Source of the DNA: Octopus sinensis
Taxonomy: Eukaryota
DNA: 64,000 nucleotides
Direction: 5' to 3'
Assembly: GCF_006345805.1 (NCBI RefSeq)
Contig: NC_043006.1
Location: forward strand, 66,278,001-66,342,000
Both the position numbers and the translations under genes were made by a program. Below the pieces are notes generated by a model that was given only the letters and a program-made list of their open reading frames with translations, did not search any database and was not told the origin of the DNA. Below, in pieces: positions 18,242 to 49,157 of this stretch (its first letter is position 1; each line of letters starts with the position of its first letter).

Positions 18242-19468
18242 AGTTGGGCAAAATAATGGAAACACCTAAAATCATAACATCATAATTATGAAATATCTAT
18301 AAAACCGCCAAAAGTTTGTTTATTTTTATATTTTTGGGTTTATTATTAGTGTTGCTTAATATGTTTAGCTAAAATTGCTGTTTCTTTTTAGGTTATCATC
18401 AGGAAATGGTAATTAAAATTCATTGAAATGACAGATCTATGGGACTTTCAAAGAGGTCAAGCTATTGGTACTCACATGGAAGGCGCTAGCGTAACGAAAA
18501 CAGCTGAAATGTTTAGTGTATCAAGAAGTACTGTGTCGAAAGTAATGACAGCCTTTGAGATAGAGGGAAAAACCTCCTCGTAGAAACAAAACTCGGGAAG
18601 AAAACCAAAAGTTTCAGATAGGGACCGTCGGACTCTTACGCGAATTCTTAGAAAGAATCCCTAAAGTACAGCTTACAAAATTACTGCAGAGCTTCATGAC
18701 TACCTTGAGAACCCAGTTTCCACAAAATTTGTTCGTCGGAAGCTGCACAAAGCCGGATATCACGGGAGGGCTGCAATCAGAAAACCACTACTTTCAAAAA
18801 CAAACGTTGCAAAGCGTTTAGCGTGGAGTAAAAACCTACAGAATTGGTTCCTAGAGCAGTGGAAGAATGTTTTCTCGGACGAGTCATCCTCTACCTTATT
18901 TCCGTTCACCGGCCGAGTATACGTGTGGAGGCAATCAAAAGAAGCATTTGACCCAGACTGCCTTCTTTCAACTGTTAAACATGGAGGAAGATCTGTGACG
19001 ATCTAGGGGGCTATATCTTGGAAATCCGCCGGCCTAATGGTTTTCCTTCATGGCAGAGTTAATAGTCAAGACTATTCAAGCATTTTATCTGATCAAATTC
19101 ATCCCATGGTTGTGGAACTGTTTTCGGAGGGAAACGCAATCTTTCAGGATATTAATGCACCAATTCACACAGCTAAAGTTGTTACTGAATAGCACGAGGA
19201 ACAGTCTAGTGAAGTTGAACAGCTTTTCTGGCCACCACAGTCCTCAGATCTCAATATTATTGAACTTTTTATGGTGCATTTTAGAAAATCAAGTAAGGAG
19301 TCGATATCTTCCACCATCATCACCACAAGAACTAGAGATTGTTTTAACTGAAGAATGGACAAAAATTCCATTGCAAACAAAACAATTCAAACTTTATACG
19401 ATTCCATTCCTATTAAAAGAAATTTGCTTGAAATTTTAAGGTGTTTCCATTATTTTGTCCAACGTCTG
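18238..19468 (+). mobile_element. Tc1-like DNA transposon, full length, decayed transposase
   Basis: TIRs gttgggcaaaataatggaaacacct / aggtgtttccattattttgtccaacgtctg in TA context; FSDES, QDINAPIH and WPPQSSDLNIIE motifs with in-frame stops. Confidence 0.93.
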
Positions 19469-27848: not shown

Positions 27849-27918
<70 letters not shown>

Positions 27919-28129
27919 ATTAATCAATATAGGGTGGCAAAAAATTTGCCACCAGCGGCCTAGTGGGAAAAAATTAAATAGTCATAGACCATTTTTAAGT
28001 TCAACATCACAATCAAGGAACGGCCATAATAGGCCATTCACCCACTAGAAATAACAGCCAAAAGCTTCAACCGCAAAATAACATCAATTCCGTAAACCAG
28101 GAGAAAATTAAAAAAACATTTACCTTGTA

Positions 28130-28236
28130 ATTTCTTATACGATGCACCGTTTCATCTACTGTTTAATGGTAAACTAACCTGATTAAATTAAATCAAGCCA
28201 ATCTACCATAGGCCCTTAGAATCATCAGTAAGAAAT
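28130..28236 (-). ncRNA. Type I hammerhead ribozyme motif (A, inverted copy)
   Basis: Perfect 8-bp stem I atttctta/taagaaat, CTGATGA, long stem II, GAAA cggtgcatcG TA. Confidence 0.8.
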
Positions 28237-28418
28237 TTTTTGCCACCCTATATTGATTAATTATGAATTTTCTGGTTAATTCCGTAATGGAATCGGCGGC
28301 TTATATTTATTTGCTGCCGATAATTTGGCGCGAGTGCGATGATTTGAAAATTTTAGGTCAGATATTGCCGAGGCAGGGACGGAAATGCCTCGTGAAAAAT
28401 ATCTGTTCCGACTTGGCT

Positions 28419-28524
28419 ATTTCTTACTGATGATTCTAAGGGCCTATGGTAGATTGGCTTGATTTAATTTAATCAGGTTAGTTTACCATTAAACAGTAGA
28501 TGAAACGGTGCATCGTATAGAAAT
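28419..28524 (+). ncRNA. Type I hammerhead ribozyme motif (A, unit 1)
   Basis: CTGATGA at 28427; 19-bp G:U-rich helix at 28446-28464 / 28471-28489; GAAA at 28502; GTA at 28515-28517. Confidence 0.8.
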
Positions 28525-28890
28525 TACAGGGTAAATGTTTTTTTAATTTTCTCCTGGTTTACGGAATTGATGTTATTTTGCGGTTGAAGCTTTTGGCTGT
28601 TATTTCTAGTGGGTGAATGGCCTATTATGGCCGTTCCTTGATTGTGATGTTGAACTTAAAATGGTCTATGACTATTTAATTTTTTCCCACTAGGCCGCTG
28701 GTGGCAAATTTTTTGCCACCCTATATGATTAATTATGAATTTTCTGGTTAATTCCGTAATGGAATCGGCGGCTTATATTTATTTGCTGCCGATAATTTGG
28801 CGCGAGTGCGATGATTTGAAAATTTTAGGTCAGATATTGCCGAGGCAGGGACGGAAATGCCTCGTGAAAAATATCTGTTCCGACTTGGCT

Positions 28891-28996
28891 ATTTCTTACT
28901 GATGATTCTAAGGGCCTATGGTAGATTGGCTTGATTTAATTTAATCAGGTTAGTTTACCATTAAACAGTAGATGAAACGGTGCATCGTATAGAAAT
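28891..28996 (+). ncRNA. Type I hammerhead ribozyme motif (A, unit 2)
   Basis: Same motif 472 bp downstream: CTGATGA at 28899, GAAA at 28974, GTA at 28987-28989. Confidence 0.8.
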
Positions 28997-29121
28997 TAAT
29001 TACAGGGTAAATTTTTTTTTAATTTTCTCCTGGTTTACGGATTGATGTTATTTTGCGGTTGAAGCTTTTGGCTGTTATTTCTAGTGGGTGAATGGCCTAT
29101 TATGGCCGTTCCTTGATTGTG

Positions 29122-29201
<80 letters not shown>

Positions 29202-35240: not shown

Positions 35241-35688
35241 TATATATATATATAACTTTGACAGGTTTCGGTCAGTATATATAGGCCCAGGCTATGTCTA
35301 ACTTAATAGCACCACCTGATGAAATCTTTTTGTCATATATGAGGCATCATGGCCCACTCTAGCAAAGAGTTATTATTGTTGGAGACATATCCGGGTGTAG
35401 GAGGTTGGTCTGGGTTTCTTTGAAGAAATTTGTCGAGTGGACATTTGAATTTCATGGGATCTCTTTCCGTTTTGACATATTTTGGTATGGTATTAAAGAG
35501 AACTAGACCGGTTGAGGTAAAGTAGTTGTGACTTAATGTAGCTATATGTACCGAGTTCGATTTTTGTAGTGGGCGGATAGCACGGGGCCAAGTCTCGGAT
35601 GGATTTTAAAATTGATGCCAACATCATTTGTGCAATATTGATGGAAAATTTTCCACATCACACAAATGATGTCGCACTCCCGGTGGTG

Positions 35689-36633
35689 TTGAACATTTAT
35701 GGTACATTTTAGAAAAACAAGCAAGGAGTCAATATCCTCTACCATCATCACTACAAGAACTGGAGACTGTTTTAGCTGAAGAATGGACAAAATTCCTTTG
35801 GAAACAATTCAAATTTTGTACGAGTCCATACCTCGTAGAATTCAAGCTGTAATTACTGCCAAATAAATTTGTTTGAAATTTTAAGGTGTTTCCATTAATG
35901 ATATAGTTTTCCAATCTTATTGCTTTGAAGGTATGATTTTGGGGAGATAAAAATTGGAGGAAAAAGTTATAGAGGTTTAAAAATTGAAAAAATTGTAATT
36001 TTAGCCAATAGCGAGGCAGAAATTTTCTGCATTTAGCGGGGCGGTGTCAACTTTAAGGTTGTACCCTGTGATATTTATAGTTTATCGTCTGTGAAATGAC
36101 CTCTTCATTGTAGGTTTCTTAATAAACAGAAATACCAAATAAATCAACATCTTACTGTTTCTTTTGTCTCTCATTGATTTTTATTTGTATTTTTTTAATT
36201 TGTTATATTGATATATTTATCTGTATGTGTTTACTTTATGCGTATTTCAGTATTATGTATACCTGTCATGTGTTTGTGTACATCATTAATATATAAATGC
36301 ATGTGTGTGTGTGTGTGTGAAAAGGGGGCGTCTGTCTCCAAGACTACAAAGTTGAGTAACGTTTTCATGCTTGGATTTGTAAACTACAATAAGAATAACA
36401 AAGAATTTGTCTCCAAAATATATGAAATGAAATATATGTAAAAATACTAACACGCAGAAAAAAGCAAAGAAAAATATATAATATACTAACACAGAAAAAT
36501 GAAAACAAAACACGCGGGTGAAAAGAATCTCGTGGTGTGAAGATTCAACACAGAACAACGTGCGGCACAGACACGGGTGAAGTGAAACACAACACAGCGT
36601 GTGGTTGTCATGGTAACAAGCTGCTAATGCCAC
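35689..36633 (+). repeat. About 945-bp dispersed duplicate of 40966-41911 (Tc1 3' end plus flank)
   Basis: Near-identical with a few substitutions and indels; ends exactly at the family B element. Confidence 0.9.
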
Positions 36634-37614
36634 CAGCGTGGGTTAAAATTGACAAACACCATGTATTAACGGTGAAAACCGCAGCATTTAGCAGAGAGAG
36701 ATGAATTATAATTTCAACAATTGAGGGTAAAATTAATTAATTATTAATCAATTTCACCAAGTATTCAGTATGTAAAGGGACCATTATAGGCAAATTCAAA
36801 ATATTACATTATATATAAGGGCTTAGTAAAATAAATTACTTTGCCACATACTGAACTCATTAGAAATAGCAGCTAAAGAAATTTCTTCAGCTATTTCTAA
36901 TACTTAAAGAAGATCTCTCTCAGATTGTGTTTGCCTAAACCAACTCACAAAAGTATGGGGGAAAAAACATTAAAAAATCAAGTGCAAAGGTTATTTGAGA
37001 ACGTACGTTTCTAGATTAGTCAATTCGTAATTAATTAATTTTACCCTCAATTGTTGAAATTATAATTCATCTCTCTCTGCTAAATGCTGCGGTTTTCACC
37101 GTTAATACATGGTGTTTGTCAATTTTAACCCACGCTGGTGGAAAGGGGAGAGCAGAAATTCTTCGCTTGCATATTCGAATTTGATAGCACTTTTAGTTCG
37201 AGCAGAATTCTAGAGGTGATTAGAAGCCGAAAGGGTATGCTCCCGACTTTCAGTGTTCCCAAATCCGATTCAAGGAATTCTGAGCTGAAGAAAGAAATGT
37301 CGAATTGACTAATCTAGAAACGTACGTTCTCAAATAACCTTTGCACTTGACTTTTTAATGTTTTTTCCCCCATACTTTTGTGAGTTGATTTAGGCAAACA
37401 CTATCTGAGAGAGATCTTCTTTAAGTATTAGAAATAGCTGAAGAAATTTCTTTAGGTGCTATTTCTAATGAGTTCAGTATGTGGCAAAGTAATTTATTTT
37501 ACTAAGCCCTTATATATAATGTAATATTTTGAATTCGCCTATAATGGTCCCTTTACATACTGAATACTTGGTGAAATTGATTAATAATTAATTAATTTTA
37601 CCCTCAATTGTTGG
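36630..37614 (+). mobile_element. Non-coding HHR retroelement (retrozyme/Penelope-like), family B: inverted arm plus a 557-bp unit with terminal redundancy
   Basis: 36630-37027 is inverted; the forward unit 37028-37613 begins and ends with taattaattaattttaccctcaattgttg; (TA)n on the right. Confidence 0.8.
37281..37332 (+). ncRNA. Type I hammerhead ribozyme motif (B)
   Basis: tgag CTGAAGA (37285)...weak stem II...GAAA (37317), palindromic cgtacg, GTT at 37326-37328, then ctca. Confidence 0.7.
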
Positions 37615-37616
37615 AA

Positions 37617-37655
<39 letters not shown>

Positions 37656-39280
37656 TATGTATGTATATATATGTATATATGAGCAATAAAAATGGCACTT
37701 AGGCGTTCAGAATTATATCTGGTTTCACTTGAAAAAATCATGGCAAAGTCACGTGCTAAATTATATTTTAACGTGCTATAGTTTGTGTAGGTGTAATACA
37801 TATACAGAGTATACAGTGTGTCAAGAAGAGCAGAGAGCAACATTGAGAGAGAGCAGGAGAAGGAGAAAGATAGTGGGGACAAAAGAAAGAAAGACACAGA
37901 CATTAATAAAAAAGAGAACAGATGGGAAGAATGGAAAGCCCAACGATGGAAGAAGTGGGTAAATATCTTATAAAAGAAAAACCAGAATCTGCTGCTGGGT
38001 CGGATTTGACCAGTTTCTGAGAATGTATTTGCACACATGAGGGTACTGCGAAAAAATTTCTGCTCTTGGGTTCAGGAAGACCCCCCCCCCCACCCAGATG
38101 AAAGGAATTCTATACGATCGTGCGCTTCTTTGCTAAGCAGAGTCTGCATCTCCCGCTGCTTTAAACCTTCGTAAAAATTCTTACAGAAGCGTAACTCATT
38201 AAGGCTCAGCTAACCGAATCTCAATGAGCTGGGTTTCTTTAAGTCACATGTGGCCGAATCAAACTGCTCAACAATAACATATGTAATTCCTGTTAAATGT
38301 GTCAAGCGCCTTTTACTTTTGATTGTCCGTTCACTCGTATATGTAGACATAGTCGCTGTATGTGGGTGTGTGATTGTATGTATGTATGTATATATGTATG
38401 TATGTATAATCTATACGTATATTTGTCTATATACATTCATATATATATATTTGTATGTGTGTCTATGTCTATGTCTATATATATATAGGGTGCGAGCGTG
38501 TGCGCGAATGCATACACACGCACACTCACGCACACACACATGTACATACAATTGCAACGGTCACTATTACCCCAACAACCACAATCCACAACCAGTATCA
38601 TATATACATGCGTACATACATACACACACACTTCCCTCTCTGTCTTCCACGATAATCCAGCGTTTACAATACTTTTTCGTCTGGCGTTAACAGCCCTTCT
38701 TATCTTGTTCTCCTTGTCTTGTCTCTCACTGTTATATATTTATTTTCCACTGTTTATATATATATTTTTACTGTTTATATGTTTGTACTGTCGTTACCGT
38801 CTTGCTTTTTTTTACCCCTCTGCGAAAAGATCTCAGAATTTTAATTGATTTGCTTTTCGCGGGAAGGAATTTTTCTTCGAAGTATACGTCTCGCTTTTAT
38901 CCTTCGAAACGTTTAGTAGATGAAATCTTAGCGACTGAAGAAGGGGATTTTTCGTTGTGCTTATTGTCCTGTATCTCTCCCCTTTTTTTTTGCTTGTCTT
39001 GTTCCTTGGTTTGTGTCGATGTGTTTCGTCTCTCTATGTGTTCGACGTCTTTTTGGTGTCCTGTACACATATATGCGTGTATATGTACATGTAGAGGTAG
39101 GTACGTACATATATGTTTATATATATGCATATATTCTATTTTATTAACATATATATATATATATAGATATATATATATATATATATAAATACATATGTAT
39201 ATATACATATATATATATTTTTATATACATTTTTACATGTCTATATATATATATATATACATACATACATATATGTGGTG

Positions 39281-39993: not shown

Positions 39994-41173
39994 GTTGGAC
40001 AAAATAATGGAAACACCTACCATCATAATTTTGTAATATCTATAAAACCGTCAAAAGCTTGTTTATTATTAATGTTGCTTAATATGCTTTGCTAAAATTG
40101 CGGTTTCTTTTCAGATATCATAAGAAAAAGGTAATTAAAATTCATTAAAATGACAGATCTATCAGACTTTCAAAGAGGTTAAATTGTTGGCATGTGCTTG
40201 CGTAATGAAAACAACCGAAATGTTTGGTGTATCGAGAAGTACTGTCTCGAAAGTAATGACAACCTTTGAGAAAGAGGGAAAAATCTCCTCGTCGAAACAA
40301 AACTCCGGAAGGAAACCAAAACTTTCAGACAAGGACCGTCGGGCTCTTACGCGAATTGTTAGAAAGCATCACAAAAGTATAACTCATACAATTACTGCAG
40401 AGCTTAATGACCACCTCGAGAACCCAGTTTCCACAAAAACTGTTCGCCGGGAGCTGCACAAAGCTGGATTTCACGGGTGGGCTGCAATCAGAAAACCACT
40501 ACTTTCAAAAACAAACGTTGCAAAGCGTTTAGAGTGGAGTAAAAACCTACAGAATTGGTTCCTAGAGCAGCGGAAGAATGTTTTCTTGGACGAGTCATCC
40601 TTTACCTTATTTCCGTTCACCGGCCGAGTATACGTGTGGAGGCAATCAAAAGAAGCATTTGACCCAGACTGCCTTTTTCCAACTGTTAAACATGGAGGAG
40701 GATCTGGGGGTGGGGGCTATATCTTGGAAATCCGCTGGCCCTATGGTTTCCCTTCATGGCAGAATTAATAGTCAAGGCTATTTAAGAATTTTATCTGATC
40801 AAATTCGTCCTATGGTTGCAAAACTGTTTCCGGAGGGAAACTCAATCATTCAGGATGATAATGCACCAATTCACTCAGCTAAAGTTGTTACTGAATGGCA
40901 CGAGGAACATTCTAGTAAAGTTGAACATCTTATCTGGCCACCACAGTCCCCAGATCTTAATATTATTGAACATTTATGGTACATTTTAGAAAAACAAGCA
41001 AGGAGTCAATATCCTCTACCATCATTACTACAAGAACTGGAGACTGTTTTAGCTGAAGAATGGACAAAATTCCTTTGGAAACAATTCAAATTTTGTACGA
41101 GTCCATACCTCGTAGAATTCAAGCTGTAATTACTGCCAAATAATTTGTTTGAAATTTTAAGGTGTTTCCATTA
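39994..41173 (+). mobile_element. Tc1-like DNA transposon, same family as 18238-19468, frameshifted transposase
   Basis: HTH and GRKPKL region, FLDES, QDDNAPIH, WPPQSPDLNIIEHLW; partial TIRs at both ends. Confidence 0.95.
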
Positions 41174-42580
41174 ATGATATAGTTTTCCAATCTTATTGCT
41201 TTGAAGGTATGATTTTGGGGAGATAAAAATTGGAGGAAAAAGTTATAGAGGTTTAAAAATTGAAAAAACTGTAATTTTAGCCAATAGCGAGGCAGAAATT
41301 TTCTGCATTTAGCGGGGCGGTGTCAACTTTAAGGTTGTACCCTGTGATATTTATAGTTTATCGTCTGTGAAATGACCTCTTCATTGTAGGTTTCTAAATA
41401 AACAGAAATACCAAATAAAATCAACATCTTACTGTTTCTTTTGTCTCTTCATTGATTTTTATTTGTATTTTTTTAATTTGTTATATTGATATATTTATCT
41501 GTATGTGTTTACTTTATGCGTATTTCAGTATTATGTATACCTGTCATGTGTTTGTGTACATCATTAATATATAAATGCATGTGTGTGTGTGTGTGTGAAA
41601 AGGGGGCGTCTGTCTCCAAGACTACAAAGTTGAGTAACGTTTTCATGTTTGGATTTGTAAACTACAATAAGAATAACAAAGAATTTGTCTCCAAAATATA
41701 TGAAATGAAATATATGTAAAAATACTAACACGCAGAAAAAAGCAAAGAAAAATATATAATATACTAACACAGAAAAATGAAAACAAAACACGCGGGTGAA
41801 AAGAATCTCGTGGTGTGAAGATTCAACACAGAACAACGTGCGGCACAGACACGGGTGAAGTGAAACACAACACAGCGTGTGGTTGTCATGGTAACAAGCT
41901 GCTAATGCCACGCTGTCCGCTGATTGGCTAAAATTACCCAAATTTTCCAACTTCAAATCCAAATAACATCAGATTTTTTAATTAACGAGATAAAGTAATT
42001 GGTTGATCGTAATCAAAATTCAGAGTTGCATCGATACACCAGAATTGAAAGCAATCTGAGCAAAATCAAAAAACGGGTTCATTTTGTGAATGAAAAAGAC
42101 GAGATCCTTCTTTTATTTGTTTCAGTCATTTGACTGCAGCCATGCTGGAGCACCGCCTTTAGTCGAACAAATCGACCCGGGACTTATTCTTTGTAAGCCT
42201 AGTACTTATTCTATCGGTGTCTTTTGCCGAACCGCTACGTTACGGGGACGTAAACACACTAACATCGGTTGTCAAGCGATGGTGGTGGTGGTGGTAGGGC
42301 AAACAGAGACATACAAACACACACACAAATATATACGGCAAGCTTCTTTCAGTTTCCGTCTACCAAATCCACTCACAAGGCTTTGGTCGGCCCGAGGTTA
42401 TAGTAGAAGACACTTGCCTACAGTGCCACGCAGTGGGACTGAACCCGGAATCATGTGGTTGGTAAGCAAACTACTTACCACACAGCCACTCCTATATACA
42501 TATATATACATTCCGCCCCGACATCCGAAACTCGGAGTCTTATTATGGCAACAGAATAATTGTCACATATTATATTACAG

Positions 42581-47430: not shown

Positions 47431-47699
47431 ATATATATATAGACCGCAGGAATGGCTGTGCGGTAAGTAGCTTGCTTACCAGTCACATGGTTCCGGGTTC
47501 AGTCCCACTGCGTGGCACCTTGGGCAAGTGTCTTTTACTATAGGATCGGGCGACCAAAGCGTTGTGAGTAGATTTTGGTAAACTGAAAGAAGCCCGTCAT
47601 ATATATATATATATATAATATATATATATATATATCATTTTTTCATTTTTCATCTAGTTTCAGCTCACGAGCTGTGGCCATGCTGGGGCACCGCCATTC

Positions 47700-47735
<36 letters not shown>

Positions 47736-48153
47736 ATGTGTGTGTGTGTGAGTGTGCGTGTGTGTCTGTGTTTGTCCAGACCACCATCACTTGACAACCG
47801 ATGATTGTATTTTTACGTCCCCATAAACTAGTGGTTCGACAAAAGAGACCGATAGAATAAGTACTATGCTTATAAAGAATCAGTCCAGAGGCCGATCTGT
47901 TCGACTGAAAGGCAGTGCTCCAGCATGGCCGCAGTCAAATGAGTGAAACAAATAAAATAATAAAAGAATATGCGTGTATGTTATTTTCTCTCTTAGGTTT
48001 CGTATGTCTGGATCGACAAGTATGGCTTCCGGACCTGATTACATTAAACCCTCCGATTCTTAACTTCGTTTCTTTCTCTTCCTCGCGCATTCCTCTCCTT
48101 CCTCTCGTCATATGTATGCACGCATGTGTGTAGATGTGTCTCTCTGTGTGAGC

Positions 48154-48223
<70 letters not shown>

Positions 48224-48315: not shown

Positions 48316-48379
<64 letters not shown>

Positions 48380-48633
48380 CGCAGGAATGGCTGTGCGGTA
48401 AGTAGCTTGCTTACCAGTCACATGGTTCCGGGTTCAGTCCACTGCGTGGCACCTTGGGCAAGTGTCTTTTACTATAGGATCGGGCGACCAAAGCGTTGTG
48501 AGTAGATTTTGGTAAACTGAAAGAAGCCCGTCATATATATATATATATATAATATATATATATATATATCATTTTTTCATTTTTCATCTAGTTTCAGCTC
48601 ACGAGCTGTGGCCATGCTGGGGCACCGCCATTC

Positions 48634-48667
<34 letters not shown>

Positions 48668-49085
48668 ATGTGTGTGTGTGTGAGTGTGCGTGTGTGTCTG
48701 TGTTTGTCCAGACCACCATCACTTGACAACCGATGATTGTATGTTTACGTCCCCATAAACTAGCGGTTCGACAAAAGAGACCGATAGAATAAGTACTATG
48801 CTTATAAAGAATCAGTCCAGAGGCCGATCTGTTCGACTGAAAGGCAGTGCTCCAGCATGGCCGCAGTCAAATGACTGAAACAAATAAAATAATAAAAGAA
48901 TATGCGTGTGTGTTATTTTCTCTCTTAGGTTTCGTATGTCTGGATCGACAAGTATGGCTTCCGGACCTGATTACATTAAACCCTCCGCTTCTTCACTTCG
49001 TTTCTTTCTCTTCCTCGCGCTTTCCTCTCCTTCCTCTCGTCATATGTATGCACGCATGTGTGTAGATGTGTCTCTCTGTGTGAGC

Positions 49086-49157
<72 letters not shown>

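What the first reader, a model, noticed from the sequence alone, without database searches (positions are those of the whole stretch)
36630..37614. Family B: the inverted arm reads through the unit junction, implying a circular or multimeric template
Seen: the forward unit is 557 bp with a 29-bp terminal redundancy. The reverse complement of 36630-37027 runs from the HHR to the unit end and continues for more than 100 nt into the unit start, further than the forward copy does. The arms differ by several substitutions, which argues against a read-chimera artefact. The HHR has a perfect palindrome aacgtacgtt across stem III, as in dimer-acting HHRs. Extra long stems include attagaaatagc/gctatttctaat and ttcagtatgt/acatactgaa.
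Basis: partly seen in the sequence, partly recalled or inferred. Interest (0 to 1): 0.75.

Follow-up and report, generated by a model that had tools for sequence, protein, structure and literature searches.

The report
Two-armed Penelope-type hammerhead retrozyme copy
This is one partly damaged copy of a common non-coding repeat with a hammerhead-ribozyme motif that sits in TA microsatellites as two back-to-back arms ending at two fixed sites; it is likely copied by a Penelope-type retrotransposon enzyme from a repeated, probably circular, RNA, a known kind of element.

Summary
The 557-nt unit belongs to a young family (352 exact hammerhead cores) in (TA)n. Across 75 loci the sense 3' ends are fixed at unit positions ~37 and ~500. 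All 55 two-armed copies are back-to-back, and 47 carry one end of each kind (none 37+37). This matches the Penelope pattern of tandem, inverted 5'-truncated arm and one-sided tail, here with a ~94-nt tail. Arms reach 13 units and cross the predicted cut 208 times, and both arms share haplotypes (68 vs 2), so the template is repeated. Circle versus uncleaved linear multimer is unresolved. The hammerhead is non-canonical (A·A at 10.1/11.1, GUU) and untested. A conserved ~190-nt stem-loop domain carries both ends in several sister families. No protein-coding partner with this domain was found. The window's left arm is truncated against a 945-bp local duplication. Verdict: new member of the animal non-LTR retrozymes; the scan noted this architecture before on other DNA.

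The parts
36630..37027 (-). Inverted arm = u274-557 + u1-114. Its distal end at u114 is atypical (family arms paired with a u37 end normally end at ~u500 in (TA)n), so it is likely truncated
37028..37621 (+). Forward arm = u1-557 + u1-37 (1.07 units), ending at the family's u37 site
37027..37028 (.). Inversion junction between the two 5'-truncated arm starts (u274 and u1), no gap
37281..37332 (+). Type I hammerhead motif: stem I UGAG/CUCA, CUGAAGA 37285-91, A·A at 10.1/11.1, GAAA 37317-20, 2-bp stem III with GUAC loop, GUU with predicted cut after 37328
   Evidence: sequence; numbering from own knowledge of hammerheads; activity untested
37319..37328 (+). 10-nt palindrome across stem III, predicted to pair between two copies (duplex -11.6 kcal/mol)
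37426..37470 (+).
37472..37565 (+). Multiloop stem (ttcagtatgt/acatactgaa) with inner GG...CCC hairpin, enclosing the u~500 end site (~37518-37530)
37528..37621 (+). ~94-nt 'tail' between the two fixed ends, with the GG...CCC hairpin 37570-37602 just upstream of the u37 end
37618..37680 (.). (TA)n target microsatellite on the right flank
35689..36633 (+). 945-bp segment nearly identical to 40966-41911 (4 mismatches, 3 gap columns), standing where the left (TA)n and the distal part of the inverted arm would be; joined to the arm at a CCAC microhomology

Best explanation
This is one copy of a non-coding, hammerhead-motif repeat family whose copies sit in (TA)n as back-to-back arms with two fixed ends, likely inserted by a Penelope-like reverse transcriptase acting in trans that would prime both nicked target strands on a repeated RNA template, most likely a circle. 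Shown: the family, the TA target, the two fixed ends, their one-of-each pairing, multi-unit arms, shared haplotypes between arms and a conserved stem-loop domain around both ends. Inferred steps: (1) tandem copies are transcribed; (2) the hammerhead cuts weakly, probably as a dimer, and part of the RNA is ligated into circles; (3) a PLE RT-endonuclease dimer binds the ~190-nt end domain and nicks both strands of (TA)n; (4) one nick primes at u~37 and the other at u~500, each 3' of a GG...CCC hairpin; (5) each cDNA runs back through the repeated template for a variable length; (6) the two 5'-truncated ends are joined, giving the divergent palindrome. In this copy the u500 arm was later cut back to u114 by a local rearrangement or misassembly. 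Confidence in 'PLE-mobilised retrozyme with two start sites' is about 0.85; in 'mainly a circle' about 0.5.
For: 55 of 75 loci are two-armed, all divergent; 47 of 55 end u37+u500, 0 end u37+u37, 1 ends u500+u508, 7 have one other end. Flanks are TA-rich at most ends. No stop-free stretch in the unit exceeds 62 codons. The predicted cut is crossed 208 times; only 4 of 130 arm 5' ends lie within 5 nt of it. Family alleles appear in both arms 68 times and in one arm only 2 times, and a 10-allele haplotype is nearly uniform over 7-9 passes in L164 (8 of the 10 in all passes, 2 in 6 of 7). Sister families at 82-95% identity use the same two ends. The end-domain motif has 10,079 hits against 0 control, with 5 pairs changed on both sides and 97% of cells paired. 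An abundant RT+GIY-YIG PLE in the same genome also ends at two sites 28 nt apart in (TA)n. Literature: tandem, inverted arm and one-sided tail (PMC8557442, passages); two internal RT start sites equal the tail, both strands are extended, the protein is a predicted dimer (PMC11167929, parts 1-2 of 4); retrozyme circRNAs (PMC7229834, parts 3-4 of 6 and passages).
Against: No protein-coding element sharing the end domain was found. The hammerhead has A·A at 10.1/11.1, a GUU site and a 4-bp stem I, and its catalytic fold (-2.6 kcal/mol) is not the minimum-energy fold (-4.5), so cleavage and circle formation may be inefficient. Ten rare alleles in 7 of 40 informative loci occur in both arms but in only some units (chance mean 2.7, maximum 9), which a monomer circle cannot give without later gene conversion. 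Periodic alleles in L051, L039 and L041 show that arrays also grow at DNA level or in assembly. In PMC11167929, hammerhead cleavage was not needed for insertion in vitro. The sample is biased toward long copies and copies that contain the core.
Confidence: 0.7

Rival explanations
1. Same element and enzyme, but the template is an uncleaved linear read-through transcript of genomic arrays; arrays are kept long by DNA-level duplication and homogenised by conversion, and no circle is needed.
For: Weak hammerhead core. Subset alleles lie in the same unit order in both arms of L032 and L046, and in the terminal unit of both arms of L067 and L069. Periodic duplications. PAc uses unprocessed RNA (PMC11167929).
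Against: 120 of 156 alleles seen in two or more passes are in every pass, which points to repeated one-unit bottlenecks. Related animal retrozymes accumulate as circles (PMC7229834).
Confidence: 0.35
2. The copies are 5'-truncated ends (pLTRs) of an autonomous Penelope element, not an independent non-coding element.
For: The architecture is that of PLE insertions; the scan found this for other hammerhead repeats in this genome (e1-9820579, e1-10336371; not tested here).
Against: Arms run through up to 13 units head-to-tail with no ORF between them. PLE ORF pieces beside L032, L061 and L119 are separated from the unit by (TA)n; none of 20 further domain-bearing loci had a PLE ORF.
Confidence: 0.08
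3. The palindrome is a read or assembly fold-back artefact, or DNA-level fold-back of a satellite.
For: The left junction of this copy is atypical and abuts a 99%-identical local duplication; no listed contig bridged it (tables cut).
Against: The arms are out of register and differ at 7 sites; 47 other loci show the same build with a fixed pair of different ends in (TA)n, and either arm can be the longer one (L032 vs L039).
Confidence: 0.04

Closest known systems
Animal non-LTR retrozymes (PMC7229834, parts 3-4 of 6 and passages read; bioRxiv 10.64898/2026.07.22.740005, parts 1-2 of 5 read)
   Same: Non-coding, low-GC tandem units with one type I hammerhead each, highly self-paired, many dispersed copies, co-existing with PLEs. 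A mismatch at the base of helix II is known (U·U in axolotl HHR_Amex2), and units of 51-972 bp are reported.
   Different: The unit is longer than the 170-400 nt of the tested circles. The core has A·A and GUU. Inverted arms and paired fixed ends are not mentioned in the parts read ('inverted' occurs 0 times in PMC7229834). RNA and cleavage were not shown here.
EN+ Penelope-like elements, e.g. Naiad/Neptune insertion structure (PMC8557442, passages) and PAc of Anolis (PMC11167929, parts 1-2 of 4)
   Same: Partial tandems, inverted 5'-truncated copy, tail at one end only, (TA)n or AT-rich target, hammerhead, two internal start sites.
   Different: No ORF. The tail is ~94 nt rather than 30-40. 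The one-of-each pairing is near strict (47 of 48 classed pairs), whereas PAc showed no difference in start site between strands in vitro.
Non-autonomous Chlamys PLEs such as MRC1 (PMC8557442, passage)
   Same: Non-coding, multicopy head-to-tail insertions mobilised by PLEs.
   Different: Those generally resemble an autonomous partner at the 3' end; no such partner was found here.

Membership tests
Animal non-LTR retrozyme | Tandem repeats with a type I hammerhead motif in each unit | tested here: met
   the core deviates at 10.1/11.1, and Rfam gave no gathering-level match
Animal non-LTR retrozyme | No protein coding; no LTR/PBS/PPT organisation | tested here: met
   longest stop-free stretch 62 codons; arrays have no internal unique region; PBS/PPT were not searched separately
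Animal non-LTR retrozyme | Highly self-paired RNA | tested here: met
   linear z -5.56; circular z -5.3 against 40 shuffles
Animal non-LTR retrozyme | Self-cleavage by the hammerhead | not testable with these tools
   folding only
Animal non-LTR retrozyme | Expressed as linear and circular monomer RNA | tested here: inconclusive
   only contig-level runs whose RNA status is guessed
PLE-mobilised insertion | Inverted 5'-truncated arm and tail at one end | tested here: met
   55 of 75 loci two-armed; 47 with one end of each kind
PLE-mobilised insertion | Microsatellite / AT-rich target | tested here: met
   (TA)n at most ends
PLE-mobilised insertion | Sequence similarity to the pLTR of an autonomous partner | tested here: inconclusive
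   none to the one abundant PLE family tested (30 loci by BLAST; 13 loci by model); other PLE families not surveyed
Autonomous Penelope-like element | RT + GIY-YIG ORF between pLTRs | tested here: not met
   no ORF within or contiguous with the arrays
Viroid-like ambisense ribozyme circle | Ribozyme in both polarities | tested here: not met
   no hammerhead core on the minus strand; no Rfam ribozyme match; other unlisted ribozyme classes not excluded

The most novel reading that the evidence does not exclude
One RT dimer docks on a conserved twin stem-loop RNA domain and copies a single RNA circle from two fixed sites onto both target strands, and the circles carry alleles that no genomic parent has (233T in L067 and 274G in L046 occur only at their own loci), meaning they vary or replicate at RNA level: a viroid-like replicon recorded in an animal genome.
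Probability: 0.08. Interest if true: 0.8.

Novelty: new member of a known kind. Interest (0 to 1): 0.4.

Why it matters
The class is known, but how Penelope-type enzymes make tandem and inverted insertions is still open (PMC8557442 says so). This family gives a small, protein-free substrate with a near-strict rule: one arm starts at each of two sites in a conserved ~190-nt RNA domain. That makes the dimer, two-strand priming model and the circle-versus-linear question directly testable in the published in vitro PLE assay. Sister families with canonical (G-C, GUC) and degenerate (A·A or U·U, GUU) cores allow a test of whether self-cleavage matters for spread.

Tried and rejected
Rfam scan of the window at gathering scores: no match. 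RNA evidence: no RNA holder listed on record; runs guessed to be RNA are contigs only and cannot show strand, ends or circles. No listed contig bridged this copy's junctions, but those tables were cut. The hammerhead cut as template 5' end: 4 of 59, 0 of 63 and 0 of 8 arm starts lie within u297-307, against ~1.2, 1.2 and 0.2 expected, so it is not a main stop. Simple fold-back of one arm: rejected because either arm can exceed the other. Autonomous partner: the abundant RT+GIY-YIG family has no similarity to the unit; none of 20 further domain-bearing loci had a PLE ORF; a genome-wide search with the RNA model was not available, so the survey is incomplete. Pol III promoter: an A-box-like word at u109 lies in a conserved stem, and a loose B-box word occurs in 1 of 6 representative units, so it is not supported. 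Periodic alleles as evidence for dimer circles: rejected, because in L051 the other arm lacks them. L113 as an RT jump between families: a later deletion between neighbouring insertions fits equally. Paper searches: 'retrozyme' + 'twin priming' gave 0 papers; 'octopus' + 'hammerhead ribozyme' listed nothing on this family. These cover only the held library, and bioRxiv supplements could not be seen. The by-sequence and near-place look-ups of earlier findings were empty.

Full report
OBSERVATION. Unit coordinates u1-557 are window 37028-37584. The forward arm continues with u1-37 to ~37621; its first 29 nt repeat exactly, then it merges into (TA)n. The reverse complement of 36630-37027 is u274-557 plus u1-114, with 5 differences in 284 nt and none in 114 nt. 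The hammerhead motif lies at 37281-37332 with the palindrome at 37319-37328; the inverted arm begins inside stem II. Rfam gave no gathering-level match.

FAMILY. The window is G000:C10:66278001-66342000 in a 2.7-Gb genome. A DNA search gave 177 matches from 39 scored of 1402 candidates, and the exact 43-nt core occurs 352 times with 0 in the control. I mapped 75 loci: the window, 37 (L049 dropped as a duplicate of L039; L041 and L042 merged), 5 and 32. Stray pieces of under 40 nt in L038 and L170 were dropped. The sample is biased toward long copies and copies containing the core. Median divergence from the family majority is 0.64%.

ARCHITECTURE. 55 of 75 loci have two arms, always divergent, so both outer ends are sense 3' ends. 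47 of 55 end at u~37 on one side and u~500 on the other; none end u37+u37, one ends u508+u500, and 7, including the window, have one other end. Of 20 one-armed loci, 11 end at u500, 8 at u37 and 1 elsewhere. Most ends run into (TA)n. Inner (5') ends are scattered, with some excess in u484-40 (17 of 59 and 22 of 63, against ~12 and ~13 expected). So 37028 is a breakpoint, and the 29-bp 'redundancy' only means that this arm is 1.07 units long. The 94 nt between the two ends correspond to the Penelope tail, described as 30-40 bp and often present at one end only (PMC8557442, passages) and explained as the stretch between two internal RT start sites (PMC11167929, parts 1-2 of 4).

TEMPLATE. Arms reach 13.45 units and cross u301/302 208 times; 4 of 130 arm starts lie within 5 nt of the cut. 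The template is therefore ligated or uncleaved there. Family alleles are present in both arms 68 times and in one arm only twice. Of 156 alleles seen in at least two passes of a locus, 120 are in every pass, 35 in a subset and 1 is arm-specific; 231 are singletons. This fits one source unit copied repeatedly, as on a circle. Against a pure monomer circle: 10 rare alleles in 7 of 40 informative loci are in both arms but only in some units (chance mean 2.7, maximum 9), in L032 and L046 in the same order, and L051, L039 and L041 show 2-, 3- and 4-unit periodicity. Heterogeneous multimers, later conversion and DNA duplication all remain possible. Two array-wide alleles occur only at their own locus (5 matches each), and a third occurs at 6 loci. 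Missing parents can be unfixed insertions, conversion, or RNA-level change.

RNA STRUCTURE. The unit folds far better than shuffles (z -5.56 linear; -5.3 circular). Both ends lie in a ~190-nt domain (u384-u46) conserved in sister families of ~540-600 nt, some down to ~69% identity; its motif has 10,079 hits against 0 control. On 15 sequences, 97.2% of cells pair and 5 of 43 pairs change on both sides (1 of 500 shuffles). The structure was derived from that alignment and the sequences are related, so this is moderate support. Each end lies 3' of a GG...CCC-closed hairpin. For the u37-type end the distance to the TA run is 12-14 nt in 21 of 30 cases; for the u500-type end it is blurred by TA-like template sequence. 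That these hairpins set the start sites is inference.

HAMMERHEAD. Core CUGAAGA...GAAA, 2-bp stem III with GUAC loop, 4-bp stem I, GUU site, and A·A where G-C is usual (numbering from own knowledge). Sisters have U·U or G·U; the 599-nt family has G-C and GUC (counts there include overlapping loci). A U·U base of helix II is known from an axolotl ribozyme that cleaves weakly as monomer and better as dimer (PMC7229834). The catalytic monomer fold is -2.6 kcal/mol against -4.5 for the minimum; two copies pair through the palindrome. Short palindromic stem III and dimer action are known for PLE hammerheads (PMC6765202, passages). Cleavage is untested, and there is no core on the minus strand.

PARTNER. 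An RT + GIY-YIG element (Pfam E 4.7e-08 and 1.3e-05) is abundant, with several open frames of 791 aa among 150 scored of 20,669 candidates. It also ends at two sites 28 nt apart in (TA)n, with one of each in L136 and L144. It shares no detectable sequence with the unit, so it is a candidate by behaviour only; 'Neptune-like' is my recalled label from its cysteine motif, not a tested placement. PLE pieces next to L032, L061 and L119 are separated from the unit by (TA)n.

THIS COPY. The inverted arm stops at u114 with no (TA)n and joins, at CCAC, a 945-bp segment that differs from 40966-41911 by 4 mismatches and 3 gap columns. A later rearrangement or a misassembly removed the u115-500 part; the runs available did not settle which.

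MECHANISM AND RIVALS. Most likely, a PLE RT-endonuclease acting in trans nicks both strands of (TA)n, primes once at each of the two sites on a repeated RNA, and the two truncated cDNAs are joined. A circle is about as likely as not the main template; uncleaved linear multimers are the chief rival. Truncated ends of an autonomous PLE and an artefact are unlikely.

NOVELTY. New member of the animal non-LTR retrozymes (PMC7229834; bioRxiv 10.64898/2026.07.22.740005, parts 1-2 of 5). I found no paper joining 'retrozyme' and 'twin priming' in the held library, but the scan's own unchecked notes describe the same paired-end build in this and other genomes; no note matched this sequence. Interest 0.4.

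Noticed in passing
window 27917-29123: A second TA-flanked element with an inverted arm and a 472-nt tandem unit, two different ends, and a hammerhead motif with U·U at 10.1/11.1 and GUA (28420, 28892); same build, different family.
   Followed up: partly
L113:2823-3389 / L182 (G000:C1:18220100-18226200): A family-B palindrome is fused at a short microhomology to an array of a distant 599-nt hammerhead unit; both outer ends are of the u500 type. Template jump or later deletion.
   Followed up: partly
L183-L202: The 599-nt sister family is young (254 matches from 40 scored of 1079 candidates) and keeps a canonical G-C/GUC hammerhead with a long stem II, unlike family B.
   Followed up: partly
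L119:2917-6140; L120-L149: Very abundant PLE family (RT + GIY-YIG, some 791-aa open frames) in (TA)n with two fixed ends 28 nt apart.
   Followed up: partly
window 39994-41173 and 18243-19452: Decayed Tc1/mariner-like transposase copies, 84.5% alike (family label recalled from the DDNAP...PQSPDLN motif).
   Followed up: no
window 35255-35688: A repeat beside a (TA)n run, with high contig depth in part, that ends abruptly at the 945-bp duplication; not identified.
   Followed up: partly
window 47442-48156 and 48377-49088: Near-identical ~930-bp tandem duplication (98-99.6%), a second local duplication in this window; real or assembly-made.
   Followed up: no
L064:1884-1986: 103 nt of an unrelated repeat lie between the two arms at the inversion junction.
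   Followed up: no
L040: The two arms differ at a family allele (59T, with 437C), suggesting two different templates in one insertion.
   Followed up: partly
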